From a virus (taxonomy: Duplodnaviria > Heunggongvirae > Uroviricota > Caudoviricetes): 6,515 nt of DNA. Where the stretch lies: positions 1 through 6,515 of the IMG/VR virus record IMGVR_UViG_2541047958_000004. One strand, given 5' to 3'. Shown piece by piece: positions 1-6,515 of this stretch. The position numbers and the translations under genes were made by a program. The notes beneath the pieces were generated by a model, which ran no database searches, was not told the origin of the DNA, and saw nothing but the letters and a program-made list of their open reading frames with translations. The first letter of the stretch is position 1; the number at the start of each line of letters is the position of its first letter.

Positions 1-582
1 TTACCCTATAGGTGCTACTGGCCATTCAATATCCGGTGCAGTTGATGTATCAACACGGTTCAGCAACACCCGATACTTTTTCCAGGCTTCCAGCAACGAC
101 GCCTCTTCTTCCGTTGCGATCTCCAGATCTACAGCATCCTGAAGCGGCGCTATATGCTCACTGGCTACCTGCATCAGGCTGTTTTTTGTTTCTTCCGCCT
201 CCCGGATCCGGAACAGTTTTTCTGCTTCCGTATCCTTCACCCAGACTGTACCGTTCCACTTCTGAAACTCCCCTTCCGGGGATAACCAGGTGACATTTTC
301 CGGTAATGAGCCGAGTTCAGAAATAAATAACGCGTCGCCGGAAGCCACGTCATAGACCGTTTTACCACGATGGTCTTCAACGAGATGCCACGATGCCTCA
401 TCACTGTTGAAAACAGCCACGAAGCCTGCCGGAATATCTGGCGGTGCAATATCGGTACTGTTTGCAGGCAGACCTGTATGAGGCGGAATATATGCGTCAC
501 CTTCACCAATAAATTCATTAGTTCCGGCCAGCAGGTTATAAATTTTTATGGTCCGTGCTTGTTCACTCATTCTGAATGCCAT
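1..582 (-). CDS. tfa: Tail fibre assembly protein (lambda Tfa-like chaperone), complete, 193 aa; stop codon at 1..3 (TAA on minus strand)
   Basis: Seen: ATG at 582 (rc of 580..582), GAGG Shine-Dalgarno 8 nt upstream (rc of 591..596), and the ATG overlaps the stf stop as TAATG. The translation (MAFRMSEQ...[31 protein letters not shown]...[22 protein letters not shown]) matches phage lambda Tfa / E. coli TfaE-type proteins almost end to end, as recalled from memory. No search was run. Confidence 0.9.
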
Positions 583-2474
583 TATGCGAGCCTCACAATA
601 TAGTTAAATGCGATGTTTTTGACGGTGTTTTCCGCGTTACCAGCAGCGTTAACGGTGATGGTGTGTCCATGTGAGCCAATCGCAACCGAGTGCGTATGCG
701 CACCAATACCTACAGTATGTGCATGTGCGCCAGAACTTGCTGCAGTACCAGACAGCGAGTGGGTATGAGCACCTGCTGACTGTGTCTGAATACGTTGATA
801 ATACGATCTACTGGAAGAAGTCCCCGGGCTTACTTGATACTGTGAATCCTTGACATAAGTGAACCCACCGCCATCATAAAATGCTAACGCAGAACCGCCG
901 CCTCCTGGCCAACGAATACCATTACCATGAGTATGAGCACCGGCAGACCCCGTAGAGCCACTCAGACTGTGCGTATGCGCCCCGGTGTTATTCGTGGATT
1001 TAGTGCCGTAATCAAACGACGATGTGGTTTTCGTCCCCAAATCCGTACTGGATGCGCTGGCGCTGTGGGTGTGCGATTTAATGCCGTCCTGTTCCTGAGA
1101 CAATACGGCCCGACCACTGGCAGGTTTGCCCTTAATCGTCCAGCCACGCATATCAGGGATCACGCCTGACGGATAAGCCGCTGCAAGTTTCGGGTATGCA
1201 GATTTGTCAAAAGTCTGCCCCTGCATCAGGGCATAGCCAGACGGAACGGTATCCGATGGCCACGGGATTGGTGCGCCGACTGGGTAGCTTTCTGGTGGAA
1301 GATTTTTCGAGGTATAAACTTCTGCCCAGTCTTCCTCAAAACCATAGCCATCTCTTGAGGAACGGTAGAACAGACCTCCATTTCTGTAATGCGCCTTCAT
1401 CTGCAGGGTCCGGCAACTTCCGACTCCGGTATAGAAGTTAACCAGAATATAGCTGTCGCCAGAGCGGGTGACATTGTAAGCGCCTGATTCGGCATTCCAG
1501 GGAACGCCACCATCCGCATCGGCATATGTATCAGTTGCCCTTCTGGCAAAAGCAGCCACATGCGCAGCGGTTAAAGTAATATCTTTGGAACCATCAAACT
1601 CAACACCAGAAACCAGTCTTGGCGTTTGCAGCTTTGTTGCTGTTAATGCATTACCGTTCAGACTTGCGGACAGTTTGGTTCCAATAATCAGTTCGCCGGT
1701 TGCGTTATCAATAGCAAACGGTCTTAATGTATTCCAGCCACCATAAACATCACCTTGATTGGTAAGCAGCAGGTAAGTTTTAGCGCCATCATTACGCCAT
1801 AATGCACCATACTCCCCACCTATCATTCGAATCTGATTACCACCACGCGCTACAATTTCGTCTGTGGCAAAAAGTTTTTTGCACGACAAGTTATCGTTAA
1901 CGATTAACGAATGAGACTCATAAAAACCACGCCCACTCTTAAAATCAAGGATAACGTCCGCCGCGATACATTCAGTCGCCGGATTTGTTGCCCCAAACTT
2001 ATAGGTCGTATCATTAACAACGAGATCAGCACCAGGTGCGGATATTGACAGGCCATCTTCGATAAACGCAAAAACAGGGAAAGCAGCGCCATCAACATAG
2101 AACACAGAGCGCAAATCATCGCCCTTATTACTCATCATTATTGAGTGGATGGCTCGTTCATTGTTTTGATATTGCCAGAACATGCCATAAGCATAACGCC
2201 CCCTGTCAGTCCAGCCACCAGGCATAACAAATCCGTTAAACTCGCAGTTATTCATCGGATCGCCTGCGGTTCGCGTTGCCGTGGTGATAATGACCCTTGA
2301 TGCCAGTTCGCTTACTGAGCCAGCAGAACGCATAACAACAACAGGGTAATATTTTCCAGATGTTGCACCTGCAGGAGCATTAACCCGCACATAACGCATA
2401 CCGCGCTTATCAGCAAAGTCTGTTTTACTGACCGCGTTAATGTTGTTCAGGAAGTGTCCCTTAAGGCAAAACAA
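582..2474 (-). CDS. stf: Side tail fibre protein (Stf-like), mosaic; start uncertain (TTG at 2474 is the longest ORF, first ATG at 2399); possibly a 5'-truncated copy of a longer stf
   Basis: Seen: 630-codon ORF ending in TAA at 582..584. The C-terminal ~235 aa (from ...GAPIPWPSD onward; ...[32 protein letters not shown]...[30 protein letters not shown]) matches the lambda Stf C-terminal region from memory, including repeated GAHTHS/GAHAHT His motifs. There is no Shine-Dalgarno before either candidate start, and the frame stays open 27 codons upstream of the first ATG. Confidence 0.8.
585..1290 (-). other. Lambda-Stf-like C-terminal receptor-binding/tip region of the tail fibre, with repeated HxH (GxHxH) motifs
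   Basis: Seen: at least seven H-x-H motifs in the last ~200 aa (SHTHS, GAHTHS, GAHTHG, GAHTHS, GAHAHT, GAHTHS, SHGHT). Established knowledge: HxH repeats in T4 gp37-type fibre tips coordinate metal ions, and the lambda Stf tip together with Tfa determines receptor use. Boundaries are approximate. Confidence 0.7.
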
Positions 2475-2493
2475 ATTCTATGCGTTCAGTCAT

Positions 2494-3504
2494 TCATGCT
2501 TTCCACTTCAGGACACCCGAATTTCTCGCGTGCATTAAAAAACGAATCAGCAACAACAGCTGGCTGCCGTGTTTTTCTTCAAAATCTTTTACCCCGGCGT
2601 GCAGTTCGTTATGACATTTACGGCACAGCGGAATAACAAACAAATCATCAGCCTTTGTTCCCATCCCTCCCAGTCCATGACCAATGATGTGATGCGGATC
2701 ATCTGCCTGATTACCGCACGTCATGCATTTCTGCGTTTTTACCCAGCGCGTGTATACAGGCATCTCTTCCCGTTGTGGTTTCTGGCGCTGGAGATACTGA
2801 GCCGGTGACTCCGGATCAACAGCAATGCTGACCACCGTCTTTTCCTGTGGCGGGTTTTGCTGGTGGGCGTGAGGCAGCGGCGCAAGATTTTTTGTGCGCT
2901 GCTTCAGTATGCTGGTGGCGGTCTGCTCTCCCGGTACGATGTCGCTTTCACGGTACATTGAGCGGATTTTTTCCGCACGCAACCCCAGCGAACGACGTAA
3001 TACCGCTTCCGGTAGCACGTCCGCCACCTGATTGCGGACCGCCCACCAGGATAATTCAGCCAAAGATAATTCACGCTCCTGCGTACCGCTTATTGCGTGA
3101 CCGATGACGTCAATCATCCATGCTGACAGGTTTTGATGAGCAAGCTGCCCGAGTGATTCGGATGTCTGGTCACGCAACTGGTTGTCGCAGTGCCAGCACA
3201 ACACCATTGCGCCGGTACCATAACGGTGAATGACAGTTTCGCTGTGATGATAATCGCCGTGTGGCCACTGGCAGGATTTAATATGGCGCAACAGCCAGTC
3301 AGACAATGCACCAGCACCACCAGCAGCACGAATCACCCGTGCGTTACTGAAAAACGGCAGCAATGTTTTGTCTTCCACCAGCGGCTGGCGAACGGCAGGA
3401 ACGACCCCTGACGGCAGATTACGCATGCTTTTCGGTTCCGGCTCCACCAATACCCGGGTATTGTGGAATACTGGCATGGATTCACGGCCCGGCTTAACGA
3501 TCAC
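2494..3504 (-). CDS. DUF968-like prophage protein with two Cys/His clusters (HNH-like C-terminal motif); 336 aa from GTG at 3504, alternative ATG start at 3477
   Basis: Seen: long ORF ending in TGA at 2494..2496. C-terminal motif CMTCGNQADDPHHIIGHG...LCRKCHNELH (CxxC...HH...CxxCH) and N-terminal cluster CQWPHGDYHH...CWHCDNQ. From memory it resembles E. coli prophage DUF968 proteins (YdfU-type); not verified. Neither candidate start has a clear Shine-Dalgarno. Confidence 0.7.
   Translation of the reverse strand: MIVKPGRESMPVFHNTRVLVEPEPKSMRNLPSGVVPAVRQPLVEDKTLLPFFSNARVIRAAGGAGALSDWLLRHIKSCQWPHGDYHHSETVIHRYGTGAMVLCWHCDNQLRDQTSESLGQLAHQNLSAWMIDVIGHAISGTQERELSLAELSWWAVRNQVADVLPEAVLRRSLGLRAEKIRSMYRESDIVPGEQTATSILKQRTKNLAPLPHAHQQNPPQEKTVVSIAVDPESPAQYLQRQKPQREEMPVYTRWVKTQKCMTCGNQADDPHHIIGHGLGGMGTKADDLFVIPLCRKCHNELHAGVKDFEEKHGSQLLLLIRFLMHARNSGVLKWKA
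2599..2727 (-). other. HNH-like / zinc-finger-like motif region within the DUF968-like protein (aa ~260-302)
   Basis: Seen: CxxC (C260, C263), HH (271-272), CxxC-H (C294, C297, H298), H302. The spacing is reminiscent of HNH/His-Me finger nucleases; calling it that is inference. Confidence 0.45.
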
Positions 3505-3603
3505 CAGCCCGAGTTCCGGTATCCGGCGTTAATTGTTAACTGGTTAACGTCACCTGGAGGCACCAGGCACCGCATCACAAAACTCATTGTTGAGGGCGCG
3601 ATA
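3505..3603. promoter_or_regulatory. Divergent intergenic region between the DUF968 start and the first plus-strand small ORF; candidate promoter/operator region
   Basis: Seen: tandem palindromic hexamers GTTAAC-TG-GTTAAC (3535..3548) and an adjacent CACC-rich segment with short inverted repeat CCTGG-aggca-CCAGG (3553..3567). No sigma70 -35/-10 pair of good quality could be assigned by eye on either strand. Confidence 0.3.
3592..3596 (+). promoter_or_regulatory. Shine-Dalgarno (GAGGG) for the 62-aa small ORF
   Basis: GAGGG lies 7 nt upstream of ATG 3604. Confidence 0.5.
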
Positions 3604-3792
3604 ATGAAAACGTTATTACCAAACGTTAATACGTCTGAAGGTTGTTTTGAAATTGGTGTCACTATCAGTAATCCTGTATTTACTGAAGATGCCATTAACA
3701 AAAGAAAACACGAACGGGAGTTATTAAATAAAGTATGCATTGTTTCAATGCTGGCCCGTTTACGTCTGATGCCAAAAGGATGTGCACAATGA
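3604..3792 (+). CDS. Small hypothetical protein, 62 aa (MKTLLPNVNTSEGCFEIGV...), first gene of the recE-proximal operon
   Basis: Seen: ATG at 3604 with GAGGG Shine-Dalgarno; stop TGA 3790..3792 overlaps the next ORF's ATG (ATGA). The longer 109-aa form starting at 3463 would overlap the divergent DUF968 start and lacks an RBS, so the internal ATG is preferred. Its position corresponds to the small genes upstream of recE in Rac-type early-left operons (inference). Confidence 0.5.
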   Translation: MKTLLPNVNTSEGCFEIGVTISNPVFTEDAINKRKHERELLNKVCIVSMLARLRLMPKGCAQ

Positions 3793-3980
3793 ATCCAGTA
3801 TTTGCACTTATTCTGACGGTTTTTCTTGTTTCCGGAGAGCCAGTTGATATTGCAGTCAGTGTTCACAGAACAAAGCAGGAATGTATGGCAGCAGCAACCG
3901 AACAGAAAATTCCAGGCAACTGTTATCCGGTCGATAAAGTTATTCACCAGGATAATAACGAAATCCCGGCAGGATTTTAA
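3789..3980 (+). CDS. Small hypothetical protein, 63 aa, with a hydrophobic N-terminus (MNPVFALILTVFLVSG...) and two Cys; possible membrane or secreted small protein
   Basis: Seen: ATG at 3789 overlapping the upstream stop (ATGA), AAGGA Shine-Dalgarno at 3776..3780 with 8-nt spacing, and ~16 hydrophobic residues at the N-terminus. The ORF-track start at 3735 has no RBS. Confidence 0.55.
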   Translation: MNPVFALILTVFLVSGEPVDIAVSVHRTKQECMAAATEQKIPGNCYPVDKVIHQDNNEIPAGF

Positions 3981-4059
3981 AACAGCACCGTAATAAATAT
4001 CCAGTTTCATTCTTATATGTCAGCAATGGCAGAGATTTGTTCACCCTTAAATCTGTGAT

Positions 4060-4064
4060 GAGGT
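4060..4064 (+). promoter_or_regulatory. Shine-Dalgarno (GAGGT) for the RecE-like gene
   Basis: GAGGT lies 9 nt upstream of ATG 4074. Confidence 0.5.
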
Positions 4065-4073
4065 TTACCAATA

Positions 4074-6515
4074 ATGAGCACTGATAAAGAAGAATTTGCA
4101 CTATATTGCGAAGCAAAAAATGACAAAGTAAGAAAACGCCTGGGAATTAAAGGTGGTTTTTACTGGACTACAGCAAAAAAATTATCTGTTGCAATCTCCC
4201 GCTGCATTACCGCAATGGATGACAACGATTATGATGAAGACGACTTTAAAAAACCCGTCCGCGTCAATTTGCCCGTTGTTGACGACCTTCCGCCAGAAGG
4301 CGTGTTTGATACTGAATTCTGCAACCGCTATGAAAAAGGCGGGAAAGATGGCATCACAATGACATTTATCGGCCCTTCCCCCTCTGTTCAGGACAAACCA
4401 GCCAGCACTGACAATACCAACATCAACGGCGAAGACATGACTGAGATTGAGGAGAGCATGCTTCTGCCTGTCTCCGGTCAGGAACTGCCCATTCGTTGGC
4501 TTGCTCAACACGGCAGCGAAAAACCAGTAACGCACGTTTCACGCGACGAACTCCAGGCATTACACATTGCACGGGCTGAAGAACTACCGGCTGTTACTGC
4601 CCTGGCTATTTCGCATAAAACCAGTCTGCTCGACTCGCTGGAGATTCGCGACCTCCACAAACTGGTTCGTGACACTGACAAAGTTTTCCCTAATCCTGGT
4701 AATTCAGACCTGGGACTAATAACTGCTTTTTTCGAAGCATACCTGGACGCTGACTACACTGATCGGGGTCTGCTGACAAAAGAGTGGATGAAAGGAAATC
4801 GTGTTTCACGCATCACCCGCACGGCTTCCGGTGCTAATGCTGGCGGTGGGAACAAAACCGATCGCAATCCGAATTTAGTACACACCCTCGACACACTGGA
4901 TGTGGAGATTGCAGCAGCCACACTTCCGATGGATTTTAATATTTATGAAATTCCGGGCAGCGTTTATCGTCGCGCAAAAGAAGTAGTCCTGAACAAAGAA
5001 AGTCCGTTCAAAGAATGGTCCGCAGCACTTCGTGCAACCCCGGGTATTCTGGACTATTCCCGCGCCGCTATTTTTGCACTTATCCGAAGCGCACACCCTG
5101 AATTTTATCACTACCCGGGACGCCTTCAGGGGTATATCAACGCCTATTTGACGGAAACTGATCACGAGAACCCCAGCAAGGAAACTCTCACAGCTGCCCG
5201 GCATACGCCGGAAAAAGATATCCTGGAAGAAATTAACCGCGAGGTGGTTACTGAGCGTGAAACAGAAGAAGAAAAACCACAACCATCTGACGCAATGGCA
5301 GGTGAACAGGCAACAACTGAAACAATGGAACCGGATACAACTGAACATGGCCAGAACGCGCAGTCGCTGGATGCTCAGTCGCAGGTGAGTTCCGCTAACC
5401 AAGTAAAAGTCACCGCTGACGAAGTAAACAAAATTATGCAGGCAGCCAATATCAGCCAGCCTGACGCCGATAAGTTACTTGCTGTATCGCGTGGTGAATT
5501 TGTTGAGGGGATTAGCGACCCTAATGATCCGAAATGGGTCAAGGGGATCCAGACTCGCGATTCTGTGAACCAGAACCAGCATGAATCGGAACGGAACGAC
5601 CAAAAAGCGGAACAAAACAGCCCAAATGCGTTACAAAACGAGCCAGAAACGAAACAATCCGAACCAGTAGCGCAACAGGAACCGGAAAAAGTCTGCACCG
5701 CCTGCGGTCAGAGCGGTGGCGGCAACTGCCCTGATTGTGGCGCGGTGATGGGCGACGCAACATACCAGGAAACATTCGATGAAGAGAATCAGGTTGAAGT
5801 TCAGGAAAATGATCCGGAGGAAATGGAAGGCGCTGAACATCCACACAAGGAGAACCCTGGCGGCAATCAGCATCACGCCAGCGATAATAAAACTGGCGAG
5901 ACGGCAGATCACTCAATTAAGGTGAACGGTCATCACGAAATCACATCCACCAGCAGGACGTGTGACCATCTAATGATCGACCTTGAAACCATGGGAAAAA
6001 ATCCTGATGCCCCGATCATCTCAATAGGTGCAATATTTTTCGATCCGCAAACCGGAGATATGGGACCGGAATTTAGTAAGACTATCGATCTGGAAACTGC
6101 TGGCGGAGTCATTGATCGGGACACCATTAAATGGTGGCTTAAGCAATCACGCGAAGCGCAATCTGCCATTATGACCGATGAAATCCCGTTAGATGATGCA
6201 CTGTTACAATTGCGGGAATTTATCGACGAAAACTCCGGTGAATTTTTTGTTCAGGTCTGGGGAAATGGAGCCAACTTCGACAACACGATTTTGCGCCGTT
6301 CATACGAACGGCAGGGGATCCCCTGCCCGTGGCGTTACTACAACGATCGCGATGTACGCACAATCGTTGAGCTGGGGAAAGCCATAGACTTCGATGCCAG
6401 AACGGCTATTCCATTCGAAGGTGAGCGCCATAATGCACTTGATGACGCTCGTTACCAGGCAAAATACGTTTCAGCTATCTGGCAAAAACTGATCCCGAGT
6501 CAGGCTGATTTTTAA
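4074..6515 (+). CDS. recE: RecE-family (exodeoxyribonuclease VIII-like) protein, 813 aa, with the canonical C-terminal nuclease replaced by a DEDDh 3'-5' exonuclease domain; stop TAA at 6513..6515
   Basis: Seen: 2.4-kb ORF with an RBS. The N-terminal ~620 aa contain long stretches I recognise from E. coli Rac RecE (e.g. [134 protein letters not shown]; [46 protein letters not shown]). The last ~185 aa instead carry DEDDh motifs. The symbol is given for the N-terminal family only. Confidence 0.85.
5694..5738 (+). other. Putative zinc ribbon (CxxC-x7-CxxC) within the RecE-like protein
   Basis: Seen: [17 protein letters not shown]. From memory the same motif is present in E. coli RecE. Confidence 0.5.
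5961..6512 (+). other. DEDDh (DnaQ-like) 3'-5' exonuclease domain at the C-terminus of the RecE-like protein
   Basis: Seen: motif I MIDLET (D636, E638), motif [11 protein letters not shown], motif III H-x4-D (HNALDD) with a following Tyr. This pattern defines DEDDh exonucleases (RNase T, Exo I, DnaQ epsilon, oligoribonuclease). The domain begins at an internal Met (ATG 5973). Confidence 0.7.

What the first reader, a model, noticed from the sequence alone, without database searches (positions are those of the whole stretch)
4074..6515. RecE-family protein carries a DEDDh 3'-5' exonuclease domain in place of the canonical RecE nuclease
Seen: the first ~620 aa align in my memory with RecE (exonuclease VIII), including the CxxC...CxxC zinc ribbon. 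The last ~185 aa contain [13 protein letters not shown] and HNALDD, the three DEDDh motifs. Established: the canonical RecE catalytic domain is a C-terminal PD-(D/E)XK nuclease that resects 5'-3' to give RecT a 3' tail, whereas DEDDh enzymes digest 3'-5'. Inference: this protein probably has the opposite resection polarity, so it may not function as a classical RecET recombinase. It could instead act in another process such as end trimming, counter-defence, or RNA/DNA 3'-end processing. I believe similar fusions exist in enterobacterial prophage annotations under the name exonuclease VIII, but I am not aware of any functional characterisation.
Basis: partly seen in the sequence, partly recalled or inferred. 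Interest (0 to 1): 0.6.

Follow-up and report, generated by a model that had tools for sequence, protein, structure and literature searches.

The report
RecE-like scaffold carrying a 3'-5' exonuclease
This very common E. coli prophage gene joins the N-terminal part of the recombination nuclease RecE, whose function is unknown, to a T4 DexA-type 3'-5' exonuclease instead of RecE's own 5'-3' nuclease, and it never has the RecT partner, so it is mislabelled "exonuclease VIII" and its real role is untested.

Summary
Window 4074-6515 (+) is a complete 813-aa ORF.

- **N-terminal part:** residues 58-615 are 59% identical to K-12 RecE residues 50-591. They include a conserved CxxC-x7-CxxC motif.
- **C-terminal part:** residues 632-803 are a full-length PF16473 (Rv2179c/DexA-like) DEDDh domain (E 7e-68). 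The catalytic residues D636, E638, D736, H786 and D791 are invariant. A confident AlphaFold model best matches T4 DexA, then RNase T.
- **What is missing:** RecE's PD-(D/E)XK nuclease (PF12684) is absent, and the protein fails the exonuclease VIII equivalog cut-off.
- **Context:** the gene is the last gene of the Qin-type dicBF early-left operon (dicB, ydfD, exonuclease, xis, int). No RecT/Erf/Bet-type annealase lies beside it in any context examined, and none is annotated in a complete phage genome.
- **Frequency:** it is not rare. The DEDDh domain DNA is in 4,048 of 5,426 complete E. coli genomes, against 1,728 for canonical recE-recT. Databases already record the architecture.
- **Modularity:** the RecE-type N-terminal region is a scaffold found about equally often with either nuclease head.

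Most likely it is a 3'-5' exonuclease acting on DNA 3' ends and delivered by that scaffold, not a RecET-type recombinase. Polarity, substrate and biological role remain inferred. A stand-alone E. coli relative (EcD, 2025) was reported as anti-T4 defence. Moderate interest.

The parts
4074..6515 (+). Complete 813-aa ORF (stop codon 6513-6515). A GAGG Shine-Dalgarno-like motif lies about 11 nt upstream of the ATG.
   Evidence: 100% identical copies occur in many E. coli genomes.
4074..4373 (+). N-terminal module 1 (aa 1-100), a confidently predicted small alpha/beta fold with no informative structural relative.
4242..4640 (+). Match to Pfam PF06630 'Enterobacterial exodeoxyribonuclease VIII' (aa 57-189). 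This is an N-terminal RecE signature, not a nuclease domain.
   Evidence: The same family matches K-12 RecE aa 2-178.
4446..5273 (+). Two helical modules (about aa 125-250 and 260-400) of the RecE-type scaffold.
   Evidence: pLDDT mostly 80-97. 59% identical overall to RecE. dN/dS against recE is 0.36-0.47.
5280..5966 (+). Acidic/polar linker predicted to be disordered (aa 403-631). Its second half (from about aa 446) is shared at about 95% identity with the YdfE-type exonuclease of phage Tritos, and also with RecE.
   Evidence: pLDDT below 50 over most of 403-615. Composition. Tritos comparison.
5694..5738 (+). CxxC-x7-CxxC putative zinc ribbon (C541, C544, C552, C555).
   Evidence: Conserved in K-12 RecE and Tritos. 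Pfam DZR is only E about 0.1. Moderate pLDDT.
5910..5918 (+). End of similarity to RecE: DNA similarity ends at 5910, protein similarity at aa 615 (window 5918). This is the domain-swap junction.
   Evidence: The RecE nuclease domain begins at about aa 564-606 (PMC11611040; PF12684 at 615-850).
5967..6482 (+). DEDDh 3'-5' exonuclease domain (aa 632-803), PF16473 / T4 DexA family.
   Evidence: dN/dS is 0.15-0.18.
5979..5987 (+). Motif I, catalytic D636 and E638.
   Evidence: Invariant in A1 and A3. They align to DexA D7 and E9.
6279..6281 (+). Motif II, catalytic D736.
   Evidence: Invariant. Aligns to DexA D119.
6429..6446 (+). Motif III, catalytic H786 and D791 (the 'h' and the last D of DEDDh).
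   Evidence: Invariant. They align to DexA H186 and D191.
3604..3980 (+). Upstream genes of the same operon: dicB (3604-3792) and ydfD/DUF1482 (3789-3980).
   Evidence: Translations. Pfam DicB and DUF1482 in the identical locus L010. dicBF operon structure in PMC10448788.

Best explanation
The gene encodes a modular early-left-operon nuclease of Qin-type lambdoid (pro)phages. It has three parts:
- a RecE-type N-terminal scaffold: three folded modules of unknown function;
- a linker of about 230 residues predicted to be disordered, containing a four-Cys zinc ribbon;
- a C-terminal DEDDh (DnaQ-fold) exonuclease of the T4 DexA / Rv2179c family in place of RecE's toroidal PD-(D/E)XK 5'-3' nuclease.

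The head most likely uses two-metal-ion hydrolysis (D636, E638, D736 and D791 binding Mg2+, H786 as general base) to remove nucleotides from free 3' ends. Its preferred substrate is probably DNA, since its closest relative DexA is a DNA exonuclease. The scaffold, which in RecE is dispensable for RecT-dependent recombination but improves linear-linear recombination, presumably brings the head to DNA ends or to a host partner.

The gene is transcribed with dicB and ydfD from the repressor-controlled early-left promoter, so the protein would be made on induction or infection, not in the repressed lysogen. It works without a single-strand annealing partner and so is not a RecET/Red-type two-component recombinase. 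In the genome slot where Rac has recET and lambda has exo-bet, it most plausibly trims or destroys 3' tails during early lytic DNA metabolism.

Shown here: domain identities, fold, catalytic residues, junction, operon position, absence of an annealase gene, purifying selection, prevalence.
Inferred: polarity, DNA as substrate, the role of the scaffold, the biological purpose.
For: - Domain content and junction.
- DEDDh fold and best match to DexA (E 1e-10, TM 0.74), then RNase T, DnaQ and Orn. The only PDB relative detectable by sequence is DexA.
- Catalytic residues invariant.
- Purifying selection on the head (dN/dS 0.15-0.18), weaker on the scaffold (0.36-0.47).
- Operon position dicB, ydfD, exonuclease, xis, int in 10 of 10 distinct contexts of the exact protein, in E. 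coli 042 and phage vB_EcoS-640R1, and in phage Tritos, whose whole genome has no annotated annealase.
- Distant fusions also sit directly before xis/int with no annealase.
- tblastn finds no RecT or RecE nuclease in the 28 DEDDh loci.
- Canonical RecE nuclease DNA remains adjacent to recT in 1,728 genomes.
- Among 56 representative proteins of at least 450 aa with the scaffold, 17 end in DEDDh and 15 in a RecE nuclease by BLAST. Pfam finds more PDDEXK heads among the remainder.
- No plus-strand promoter-like site lies directly upstream of the gene. The dicBF operon is DicA-repressed (PMC10448788).
- The RecE N-terminal domain has unknown function, is dispensable, and enhances linear-linear recombination (PMC11611040).
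Against: - No biochemical data exist for this protein. Polarity and substrate are inferred from homology at about 21-25% identity to DexA.
- The Pfam family is named after an exoribonuclease (Rv2179c), and RNase T-type enzymes cut both RNA and DNA.
- The scaffold has no recognisable fold relatives, so its targeting role is conjecture.
- Absence of an annealase was judged from annotation, Pfam and RecT tblastn. A novel annealase among unannotated phage genes cannot be excluded.
- In this window the gene lies in an ~8-kb prophage remnant that has lost its promoter and immunity region, so this copy may not be expressed at all.
- The EcD report suggests a defence role rather than a phage-replication role.
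Confidence: 0.55

Rival explanations
1. It is a genuine exonuclease VIII (RecE): a 5'-3' dsDNA exonuclease that generates 3' tails for an annealase, as many phage records annotate it.
For: Annotated 'exodeoxyribonuclease VIII' in phage records. The N-terminal 615 aa match the exonuclease VIII model and RecE. It occupies the same genome slot as recET in Rac.
Against: - The PD-(D/E)XK nuclease domain is entirely absent. RecE has PF12684 at aa 615-850, and this protein has none.
- The equivalog score is 943, below the cut-off of 1269, and only model positions 1-602 of 877 are matched.
- No recT is adjacent in any context.
- The part shared with RecE is the part that is dispensable for RecE's nuclease and recombination function (PMC11611040).
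Confidence: 0.02
2. It is an inter-phage warfare or defence nuclease of the EcD/'HREX' type: a DexA-like exonuclease that destroys the modified (5hmC-type) DNA of superinfecting T-even phages while sparing unmodified DNA.
For: - Same family as DexA and EcD. EcD is a stand-alone E. coli DexA homologue reported to digest T4 DNA, not to digest unmodified dsDNA at 25 C, and to protect against T4 from a plasmid (PMC12153337).
- That paper found 3,196 bacterial DexA homologues, 38% of them in Escherichia, which very likely includes this family.
- The neighbouring operon gene dicB protects against phage infection (PMC6832061, title and abstract).
- Catalytic residues are conserved.
Against: - The gene lies in the repressor-controlled early-left operon, so it would not normally be expressed in a lysogen.
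- This protein keeps Asp (D708) at the DexA D90 position, whereas the absence of that Asp (A78) is what the paper says makes EcD modification-specific.
- DexA W152 and D169 align to Y756 and A770 here. W753 and D772 are nearby, so this point is unresolved.
- No PADLOC model matches, although that library predates HREX.
- EcD itself could not be recovered for comparison and is not among the closest 150 representatives.
- The role of the 630-aa scaffold is left unexplained.
Confidence: 0.17
3. It is a 3'-5' exoribonuclease (Rv2179c/RNase T-like) that trims RNA 3' ends, for example phage or host transcripts or sRNAs such as DicF from the same operon.
For: The Pfam family is named for Rv2179c, which is reported to have 3' exonuclease activity on single-stranded overhangs of dsRNA (PMC10534295 citing Abendroth 2014). 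NCBI names the protein '3'-5' exoribonuclease domain-containing protein'. RNase T and oligoribonuclease are strong structural matches. DicF is made by processing of the same polycistronic RNA.
Against: The closest relative by both sequence and structure is the DNA exonuclease DexA. Rv2179c did not appear in the PDB sequence search at E<=0.01. The gene occupies the DNA recombination slot next to xis/int. Its scaffold is shared with a DNA enzyme (RecE). Known DicF processing uses RNase III and RNase E.
Confidence: 0.1
4. It is a phage counter-defence factor. The scaffold binds a host complex (for example RecBCD or SSB), and the DEDDh head removes a nucleic-acid effector or 3' tails needed by a host immunity or repair pathway.
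For: It is an early gene in the slot where lambda has gam and P22 has abc (established knowledge, not tested here). The scaffold is large and rapidly diversifying, with alternative N-termini (RecE-type or YdfE-type) on the same head, which is a pattern typical of host-interaction modules. No annealase partner is present.
Against: There is no direct evidence of any kind: no recognisable interaction motif, and no structural relative for the scaffold.
Confidence: 0.1
5. It is a decaying, non-functional chimera produced by illegitimate recombination in defective prophages.
For: This window is a heavily deleted prophage remnant. Broken copies exist (L028, L024). Other chimeras exist: P0059, a YdfE N-terminus joined to a partial exonuclease domain, and P0247, a RecE N-terminus joined to RecT. 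K-12 ydfE is an IS2-truncated relative.
Against: Intact 813-aa ORFs occur in over a thousand genomes. dN/dS of the head is 0.15-0.18. Catalytic residues are invariant across 58-88% identical homologues. The gene is present in phage records that include a complete 46-kb genome. The same architecture recurs in 17 clusters at 50% identity.
Confidence: 0.04

Closest known systems
RecE / exonuclease VIII of the Rac prophage (E. coli K-12 b1350)
   Same: - N-terminal region: 59% identity over aa 58-615 against RecE 50-591.
- PF06630 signature, the conserved [16 protein letters not shown] motif and the CxxC-x7-CxxC ribbon.
- Same position at the end of the early-left operon, just before xis/int.
   Different: - RecE's catalytic C-terminal PD-(D/E)XK domain (PF12684, aa 615-850; tetrameric toroid, 5'-3') is replaced by a DEDDh domain.
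- No recT follows.
- The protein fails the exonuclease VIII equivalog cut-off.
T4 DexA (exonuclease A; PDB 8KEL/8KEN)
   Same: Best sequence and structure match for aa 632-803 (phmmer E 2e-6; Foldseek E 1e-10, TM 0.74). All five catalytic residues align, and D90 corresponds to D708. DexA is annotated as a 3'-5' DNA exonuclease.
   Different: Only about 21-25% identity. DexA is a 227-aa stand-alone protein with extra loops, from a lytic phage with modified DNA. This protein has a 630-aa N-terminal extension and comes from temperate lambdoid phages. DexA W152 and D169 are not clearly conserved.
EcD, the 'HREX' E. coli DexA homologue (GenBank HAK9828821.1; PMC12153337)
   Same: A bacterial or prophage member of the same DexA-like family. 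Its primers show that it starts MIDTET..., at the position equivalent to M634 (MIDLET...) here.
   Different: EcD is stand-alone. It has Ala at the DexA D90 position where this protein has Asp. Its sequence could not be retrieved, so the identity is unknown. It is not among the 386 relatives fetched.
YdfE of K-12 Qin and the 823-aa exonuclease of phage Tritos
   Same: Same operon slot after ydfD. Same linker, zinc ribbon and DEDDh head (about 95-99% identity from aa 446 onward). The K-12 ydfE pseudogene is 99% identical to Tritos aa 1-256 and is cut by IS2.
   Different: A different N-terminal module: YdfE-type, unrelated to the first ~245 aa of the RecE-type scaffold.
Rv2179c of M. tuberculosis (founder of PF16473) and E. 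coli RNase T
   Same: DEDDh fold and motifs. This protein matches the Pfam family over its full length.
   Different: These are stand-alone cellular RNA-processing enzymes. Rv2179c was not detected in the PDB sequence search.
Stand-alone prophage PF16473 exonucleases of Salmonella, Klebsiella and Citrobacter (for example P0098, 189 aa)
   Same: 58-61% identical head. Also the last early-left gene before xis/int, and also without an annealase.
   Different: No scaffold. Preceded by YfdP, DUF2303 and DndB-like genes instead of dicB and ydfD.

Membership tests
Exodeoxyribonuclease VIII / RecE (NCBIfam NF007259 equivalog) | Whole-protein score at or above the curated equivalog cut-off | tested here: not met
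   942.7 bits against a cut-off of 1269. Only model positions 1-602 of 877 are matched.
Exodeoxyribonuclease VIII / RecE | C-terminal PD-(D/E)XK nuclease domain (PF12684/DUF3799; RecE 602-866) | tested here: not met
   Present in K-12 RecE at 615-850. Absent here. BLASTP finds no similarity beyond RecE aa 591.
Exodeoxyribonuclease VIII / RecE | N-terminal PF06630 region | tested here: met
   E 1.7e-35, aa 57-189.
Exodeoxyribonuclease VIII / RecE | 5'-3' processive dsDNA exonuclease activity | not testable with these tools
   Needs a biochemical assay. Not expected, given the missing domain.
Two-component phage recombinase (exonuclease plus annealase; RecET, Red exo/bet) | An adjacent single-strand annealing protein gene (RecT/Bet/Erf/Sak type) | tested here: not met
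   None in 10 of 10 contexts within 10 kb on either side. None downstream in the window's own genome. None by tblastn with RecT in 28 loci. None annotated in the complete Tritos genome. Only RecT was searched by sequence. Bet, Erf and Sak were judged from Pfam and annotation.
DEDDh (DnaQ-like) 3'-5' exonuclease superfamily | Motif I DxE, motif II D, motif III Hx4D all present and conserved | tested here: met
   D636, E638, D736, H786 and D791 are invariant in 26 homologues and in the alignment with T4 DexA.
DEDDh (DnaQ-like) 3'-5' exonuclease superfamily | RNase H-like alpha/beta fold superposable on known members | tested here: met
   Model pLDDT 85.5. Foldseek probability 1.00 to DexA, RNase T, DnaQ domain and Orn/REXO2, with TM 0.66-0.75.
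DEDDh (DnaQ-like) 3'-5' exonuclease superfamily | Metal-dependent 3'-5' exonuclease activity | not testable with these tools
   Needs a polarity assay on end-labelled substrates.
PF16473 Rv2179c-like / DexA family | Score above the Pfam gathering threshold over the full model | tested here: met
   228 bits against 27, model positions 2-177 of 177.
HREX (EcD-type modification-dependent anti-phage exonuclease, PMC12153337) | Loss of the DexA D90 tetramer contact (Ala in EcD) | tested here: not met
   D708 aligns with DexA D90 in both the HMMER and the MAFFT alignment. Many stand-alone homologues have Ala or Ser there.
HREX (EcD-type) | Conservation of the DexA 5hmC-recognition residues W152 and D169 | tested here: inconclusive
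   They align to Y756 and A770. The conserved W753 and D772 lie 2-3 residues away. At about 25% identity the alignment cannot decide.
HREX (EcD-type) | Protection against T4-type phages and selectivity for modified DNA | not testable with these tools
   Needs plaque and nuclease assays. No PADLOC match, but that library predates HREX.

The most novel reading that the evidence does not exclude
The RecE-type N-terminal region is a targeting module that delivers interchangeable nuclease heads of opposite polarity to the same cellular target, either DNA ends or a host repair/immunity complex. The heads are PD-(D/E)XK 5'-3' with RecT, or DEDDh 3'-5' with no partner. The DEDDh form would then be a distinct, annealase-independent phage system for DNA-end control or inter-phage conflict, and the predominant form in E. 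coli. Studying it would reveal the long-unknown function of the RecE N-terminus.
Probability: 0.2. Interest if true: 0.65.

Novelty: new variant of a known kind. Interest (0 to 1): 0.4.

Why it matters
- **Annotation.** Many phage and prophage records call this protein exonuclease VIII. That predicts the wrong chemistry (5'-3', dsDNA, RecT-dependent). It should not be counted as a RecET recombination system or mined as a recombineering exonuclease.
- **Abundance.** The DEDDh head is in about 75% of complete E. coli genomes, more than twice as many as canonical recET. One of the commonest prophage nucleases of the best-studied bacterium therefore has no assigned role.
- **A route to the RecE N-terminus.** The same scaffold carries two unrelated nuclease heads, and only the PD-(D/E)XK head comes with an annealase. 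This natural domain swap could help explain what the RecE N-terminal 600 residues do, which reviews still describe as unknown.
- **A testable defence question.** If the EcD/HREX result generalises, these genes could affect the susceptibility of E. coli strains to T-even phages. That is relevant to phage therapy and is simple to test.

Tried and rejected
- **K-12 ydfE as a truncated copy of this gene.** Rejected as first stated, because there is no similarity to this protein. Later refined: ydfE is the N-terminus of a sister architecture (Tritos type) with the same linker and head.
- **Recovering the EcD gene from its published primers.** The 23-mer had no exact match in viral contigs or metagenome contigs, and no fetched protein starts MIDTET or ends PETYD. 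The gene may have been synthesised, so identity to EcD stays unknown.
- **E. coli 'stand-alone' 180-183-aa exonucleases (P0038, P0063) as independent genes.** Their loci show broken long genes upstream, so they are remnants. The Salmonella 189-aa type is genuinely stand-alone.
- **Stx2a phage allele (L023) for the selection test.** It is frameshifted and cut by the record end, so it was not used.
- **PADLOC scan.** No match.
- **Literature searches.** PF16473 gave 0 papers. 'exonuclease VIII' + DEDD + prophage gave 1 irrelevant paper. One search was malformed and one was swamped by 'receptor'. The founding Rv2179c paper (PMC3900960) is not held.
- **Whole window in complete E. coli genomes.** No contiguous match. 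It was later found 100% identical in a draft genome (L010).
- **Rfam.** No DicF in the window, explained by the deletion mapped.
Full report
**The observation**

Window 4074-6515 on the plus strand is one complete ORF of 813 codons. Its stop codon is the last triplet of the window.

Profile searches put this far beyond chance:
- PF16473 (Rv2179c-like 3'-5' exoribonuclease domain) matches residues 632-803 over the whole model, with E 7e-68 and 228 bits against a gathering score of 27.
- PF06630 (enterobacterial exonuclease VIII, an N-terminal signature) matches residues 57-189 with E 1.7e-35.
- The NCBIfam exonuclease VIII equivalog aligns residues 1-615 to model positions 1-602 of 877. The score is 943, below the cut-off of 1269, because the last third of the model has no counterpart.

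Direct BLASTP against K-12 RecE gives 59% identity over residues 58-615 (RecE 50-591), including the aligned four-Cys motif, and nothing beyond. At DNA level the similarity ends at gene nucleotide 1837, window 5910. Pfam places RecE's own nuclease (PF12684, PDDEXK-like) at 615-850. [quoted passage not shown] The exchange therefore sits at the boundary of the catalytic domain.

**The C-terminal domain**

An alignment of 26 homologues at 58-88% identity has D636, E638, D736, H786 and D791 invariant. The same five columns are invariant when T4 DexA is added, where they correspond to DexA D7, E9, D119, H186 and D191. The DexA paper lists D7, E12, D119, D191 and H186 as its catalytic residues.

AlphaFold on that alignment gives a confident model (mean pLDDT 85.5, pTM 0.83). 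Foldseek against the PDB ranks T4 DexA first (8KEL/8KEN, E about 1e-10, TM 0.74). RNase T, a DnaQ domain, and oligoribonuclease/REXO2 follow, all at probability 1.00. DexA is also the only PDB entry found by sequence (E 2e-6).

Nei-Gojobori dN/dS for the head is 0.15-0.18 against three diverged alleles. For the RecE-like region against recE it is 0.36-0.47. The head is therefore an intact, selected DEDDh exonuclease. Its 3'-5' polarity follows from established knowledge of this superfamily and has not been measured.

**The N-terminal region**

**Genomic setting**

The window is 100% identical over its full length to a draft E. coli genome (L010, GCA_000461755.1). In that genome the gene is followed by a 67-aa DUF4224 (Xis-like) gene, a tyrosine integrase and host mtfA.

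Just upstream in the window are dicB (3604-3792) and ydfD (3789-3980). The gene therefore occupies the 'ydfE' slot at the end of the Qin-type dicBF operon. That operon is transcribed from the DicA-repressed promoter dicBp, and only DicF, DicB and YdfD have been characterised in it (PMC10448788). No plus-strand promoter-like site lies directly upstream of the gene.

Every context examined shows the same order, with no annealase gene:
- Ten of ten distinct contexts of the exact protein show dicB, ydfD, exonuclease, xis-like gene, int, host gene. No RecT, Erf or Bet family gene lies within 10 kb on either side.
- The same order holds in E. coli 042 and in phage vB_EcoS-640R1.
- It also holds in phage Tritos, whose complete 46-kb genome has no annotated annealase anywhere.
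- Two distant fusions (43-46% identity) sit in the orders KilR, exonuclease, int and repressor, two small genes, exonuclease, Exc, Int.
- The genuinely stand-alone 189-aa Salmonella enzyme is also the last gene before xis/int.
- tblastn with K-12 RecT and with the RecE nuclease domain finds neither in any of the 28 fetched loci that carry a DEDDh gene.

By contrast, a query spanning the 3' part of recE plus recT is found intact in 1,728 genomes. In K-12 Rac the order is recE, recT, ralR, rcbA, xis, int. The PD-(D/E)XK head comes with an annealase and the DEDDh head does not.

**How common it is, and how modular**

- The full gene is present at 80% coverage or more in 1,245 of 5,426 complete E. 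coli genomes.
- The DEDDh domain DNA alone is in 4,048 of 5,426, with up to seven copies per genome.
- Public protein collections already hold the 813-aa protein under the architecture PF06630 + PF16473, with names such as 'exonuclease' and '3'-5' exoribonuclease domain-containing protein'. Several phage records call it exodeoxyribonuclease VIII.

In a library of 50%-identity representatives, 56 proteins of at least 450 aa share the RecE-like region. Of these, 17 end in the DEDDh domain and 15 in a RecE-type nuclease by BLAST. Pfam detects further PDDEXK heads among the rest, and one protein is a RecE N-terminus fused to RecT.

The Tritos 823-aa protein has a different N-terminus. It is 99% identical to the K-12 pseudogene ydfE over 256 residues, and ydfE is cut by IS2. 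Tritos shares the same linker, zinc ribbon and head from about residue 446 onward. The family is therefore a mosaic of alternative N-termini, a shared linker, and two alternative nuclease heads.

**Mechanism**

The best-supported reading is a two-metal DEDDh exonuclease that removes nucleotides from free 3' ends. DNA is the probable substrate, because the nearest relative is the DNA exonuclease DexA and because the scaffold and the genome slot are those of a DNA-end enzyme. The head would be tethered through a long flexible linker to a scaffold that, in RecE, is not needed for catalysis but improves linear-linear recombination. It acts without an annealase and so is not a RecET/Red-type recombinase. 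Its purpose is inference; the options are trimming 3' tails in early lytic DNA metabolism, interfering with host end-processing, or attacking foreign DNA.

The main rival is the 'HREX' idea. Kang et al. (PMC12153337) reported that EcD, a stand-alone E. coli DexA homologue, digests T4 DNA, does not digest unmodified dsDNA at 25 C, and protects cells from T4. This protein belongs to the same family, but three points count against the same role:
- It keeps Asp at the DexA D90 position, the contact whose loss is said to confer that selectivity.
- The proposed 5hmC-contact residues align to Y756 and A770. W753 and D772 lie nearby, so the point is unresolved.
- The gene lies in a repressed operon.

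EcD's sequence could not be recovered. An RNA role is possible, since the family is named after an exoribonuclease, but the closest relatives fit it less well. Pseudogene status is contradicted by the selection and conservation data.

**Verdict**

The protein is not a member of the exonuclease VIII family in the functional sense. It is a member of the DEDDh / PF16473 (DexA-like) family that carries a RecE-type scaffold.

The architecture is already catalogued and extremely common, so the sequence feature itself is not new. I found the following in no paper held in the library:
- functional work on the fusion;
- the observation that the scaffold is shared about equally by two heads of opposite polarity;
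- the strict link between head type and the presence of an annealase;
- the identification of K-12 ydfE as a remnant of this gene family.

Interest is moderate. It corrects a widespread annotation and offers a practical way into the unknown function of the RecE N-terminus, but the chemistry is conventional and the biological role is still open.

Noticed in passing
window 1-6515 (breakpoint at 3519; second junction between 2474 and 2494): The window is an ~8-kb cryptic prophage remnant. Tail-fibre assembly (1-582, minus) and tail fibre (582-2474, minus) are joined directly to a DUF968/YdfU-like HNH gene (2494-3504, minus). That gene is joined at 3519 to a point 85 bp upstream of dicB. Relative to phage Tritos, about 9 kb is missing at 3519 (dicF, ydfABC, cI/cro, replication genes). 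The Q, lysis, head and tail genes are missing at the other junction. The exonuclease has thus lost its normal promoter and repressor in this copy. The window is 100% identical to L010 (GCA_000461755.1).
   Followed up: yes
L004:6079-6999 (K-12 ydfE, b1577) and L021:4641-7109 (phage Tritos TRITO_27): The K-12 Qin pseudogene ydfE is 99% identical to the first 256 aa of an 823-aa DEDDh exonuclease that is intact in phage Tritos. IS2E truncates it. K-12 once carried a sister form of the gene studied here.
   Followed up: yes
window 41-239 (minus strand): Rfam family IS009 (RF02111) matches at 222 bits (gathering score 117) inside the tail-fibre assembly gene.
   Followed up: no
P0247 (703 aa; representative-library protein): This protein joins the RecE N-terminal region (PF06630, aa 2-178) directly to a RecT domain (PF03837, aa 528-678) with no nuclease domain. 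It looks like a recE-recT deletion fusion.
   Followed up: no
P0059 (261 aa): This chimera joins the YdfE N-terminus to the last two thirds of the DEDDh domain. It lacks motif I (DxE), so it is presumably inactive.
   Followed up: partly
L015-L020:2637-6570 (Salmonella prophages): The stand-alone 189-aa PF16473 exonuclease follows a conserved block of YfdP, DUF2303 (YfdQ-like), a 179-aa unknown and a DndB-like protein in the early-left operon. The pairing of DndB with the exonuclease just before xis/int is unexplained.
   Followed up: no
L005 and L012:3770-5104; L014:1189-3953: Otherwise near-identical Qin-type prophages carry different inserts between hok and the replication genes: an FRG-domain protein in L005/L012, and a RES-domain protein plus a Peptidase_U49 (Lit-like) protein in L014. 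This may be a variable hotspot for accessory or defence cargo.
   Followed up: no
L024:737-3127 and L028:4009-6000: Some E. coli '3'-5' exoribonuclease' genes of 180-183 aa are the surviving 3' ORFs of frameshifted long exonuclease genes, not independent genes.
   Followed up: partly
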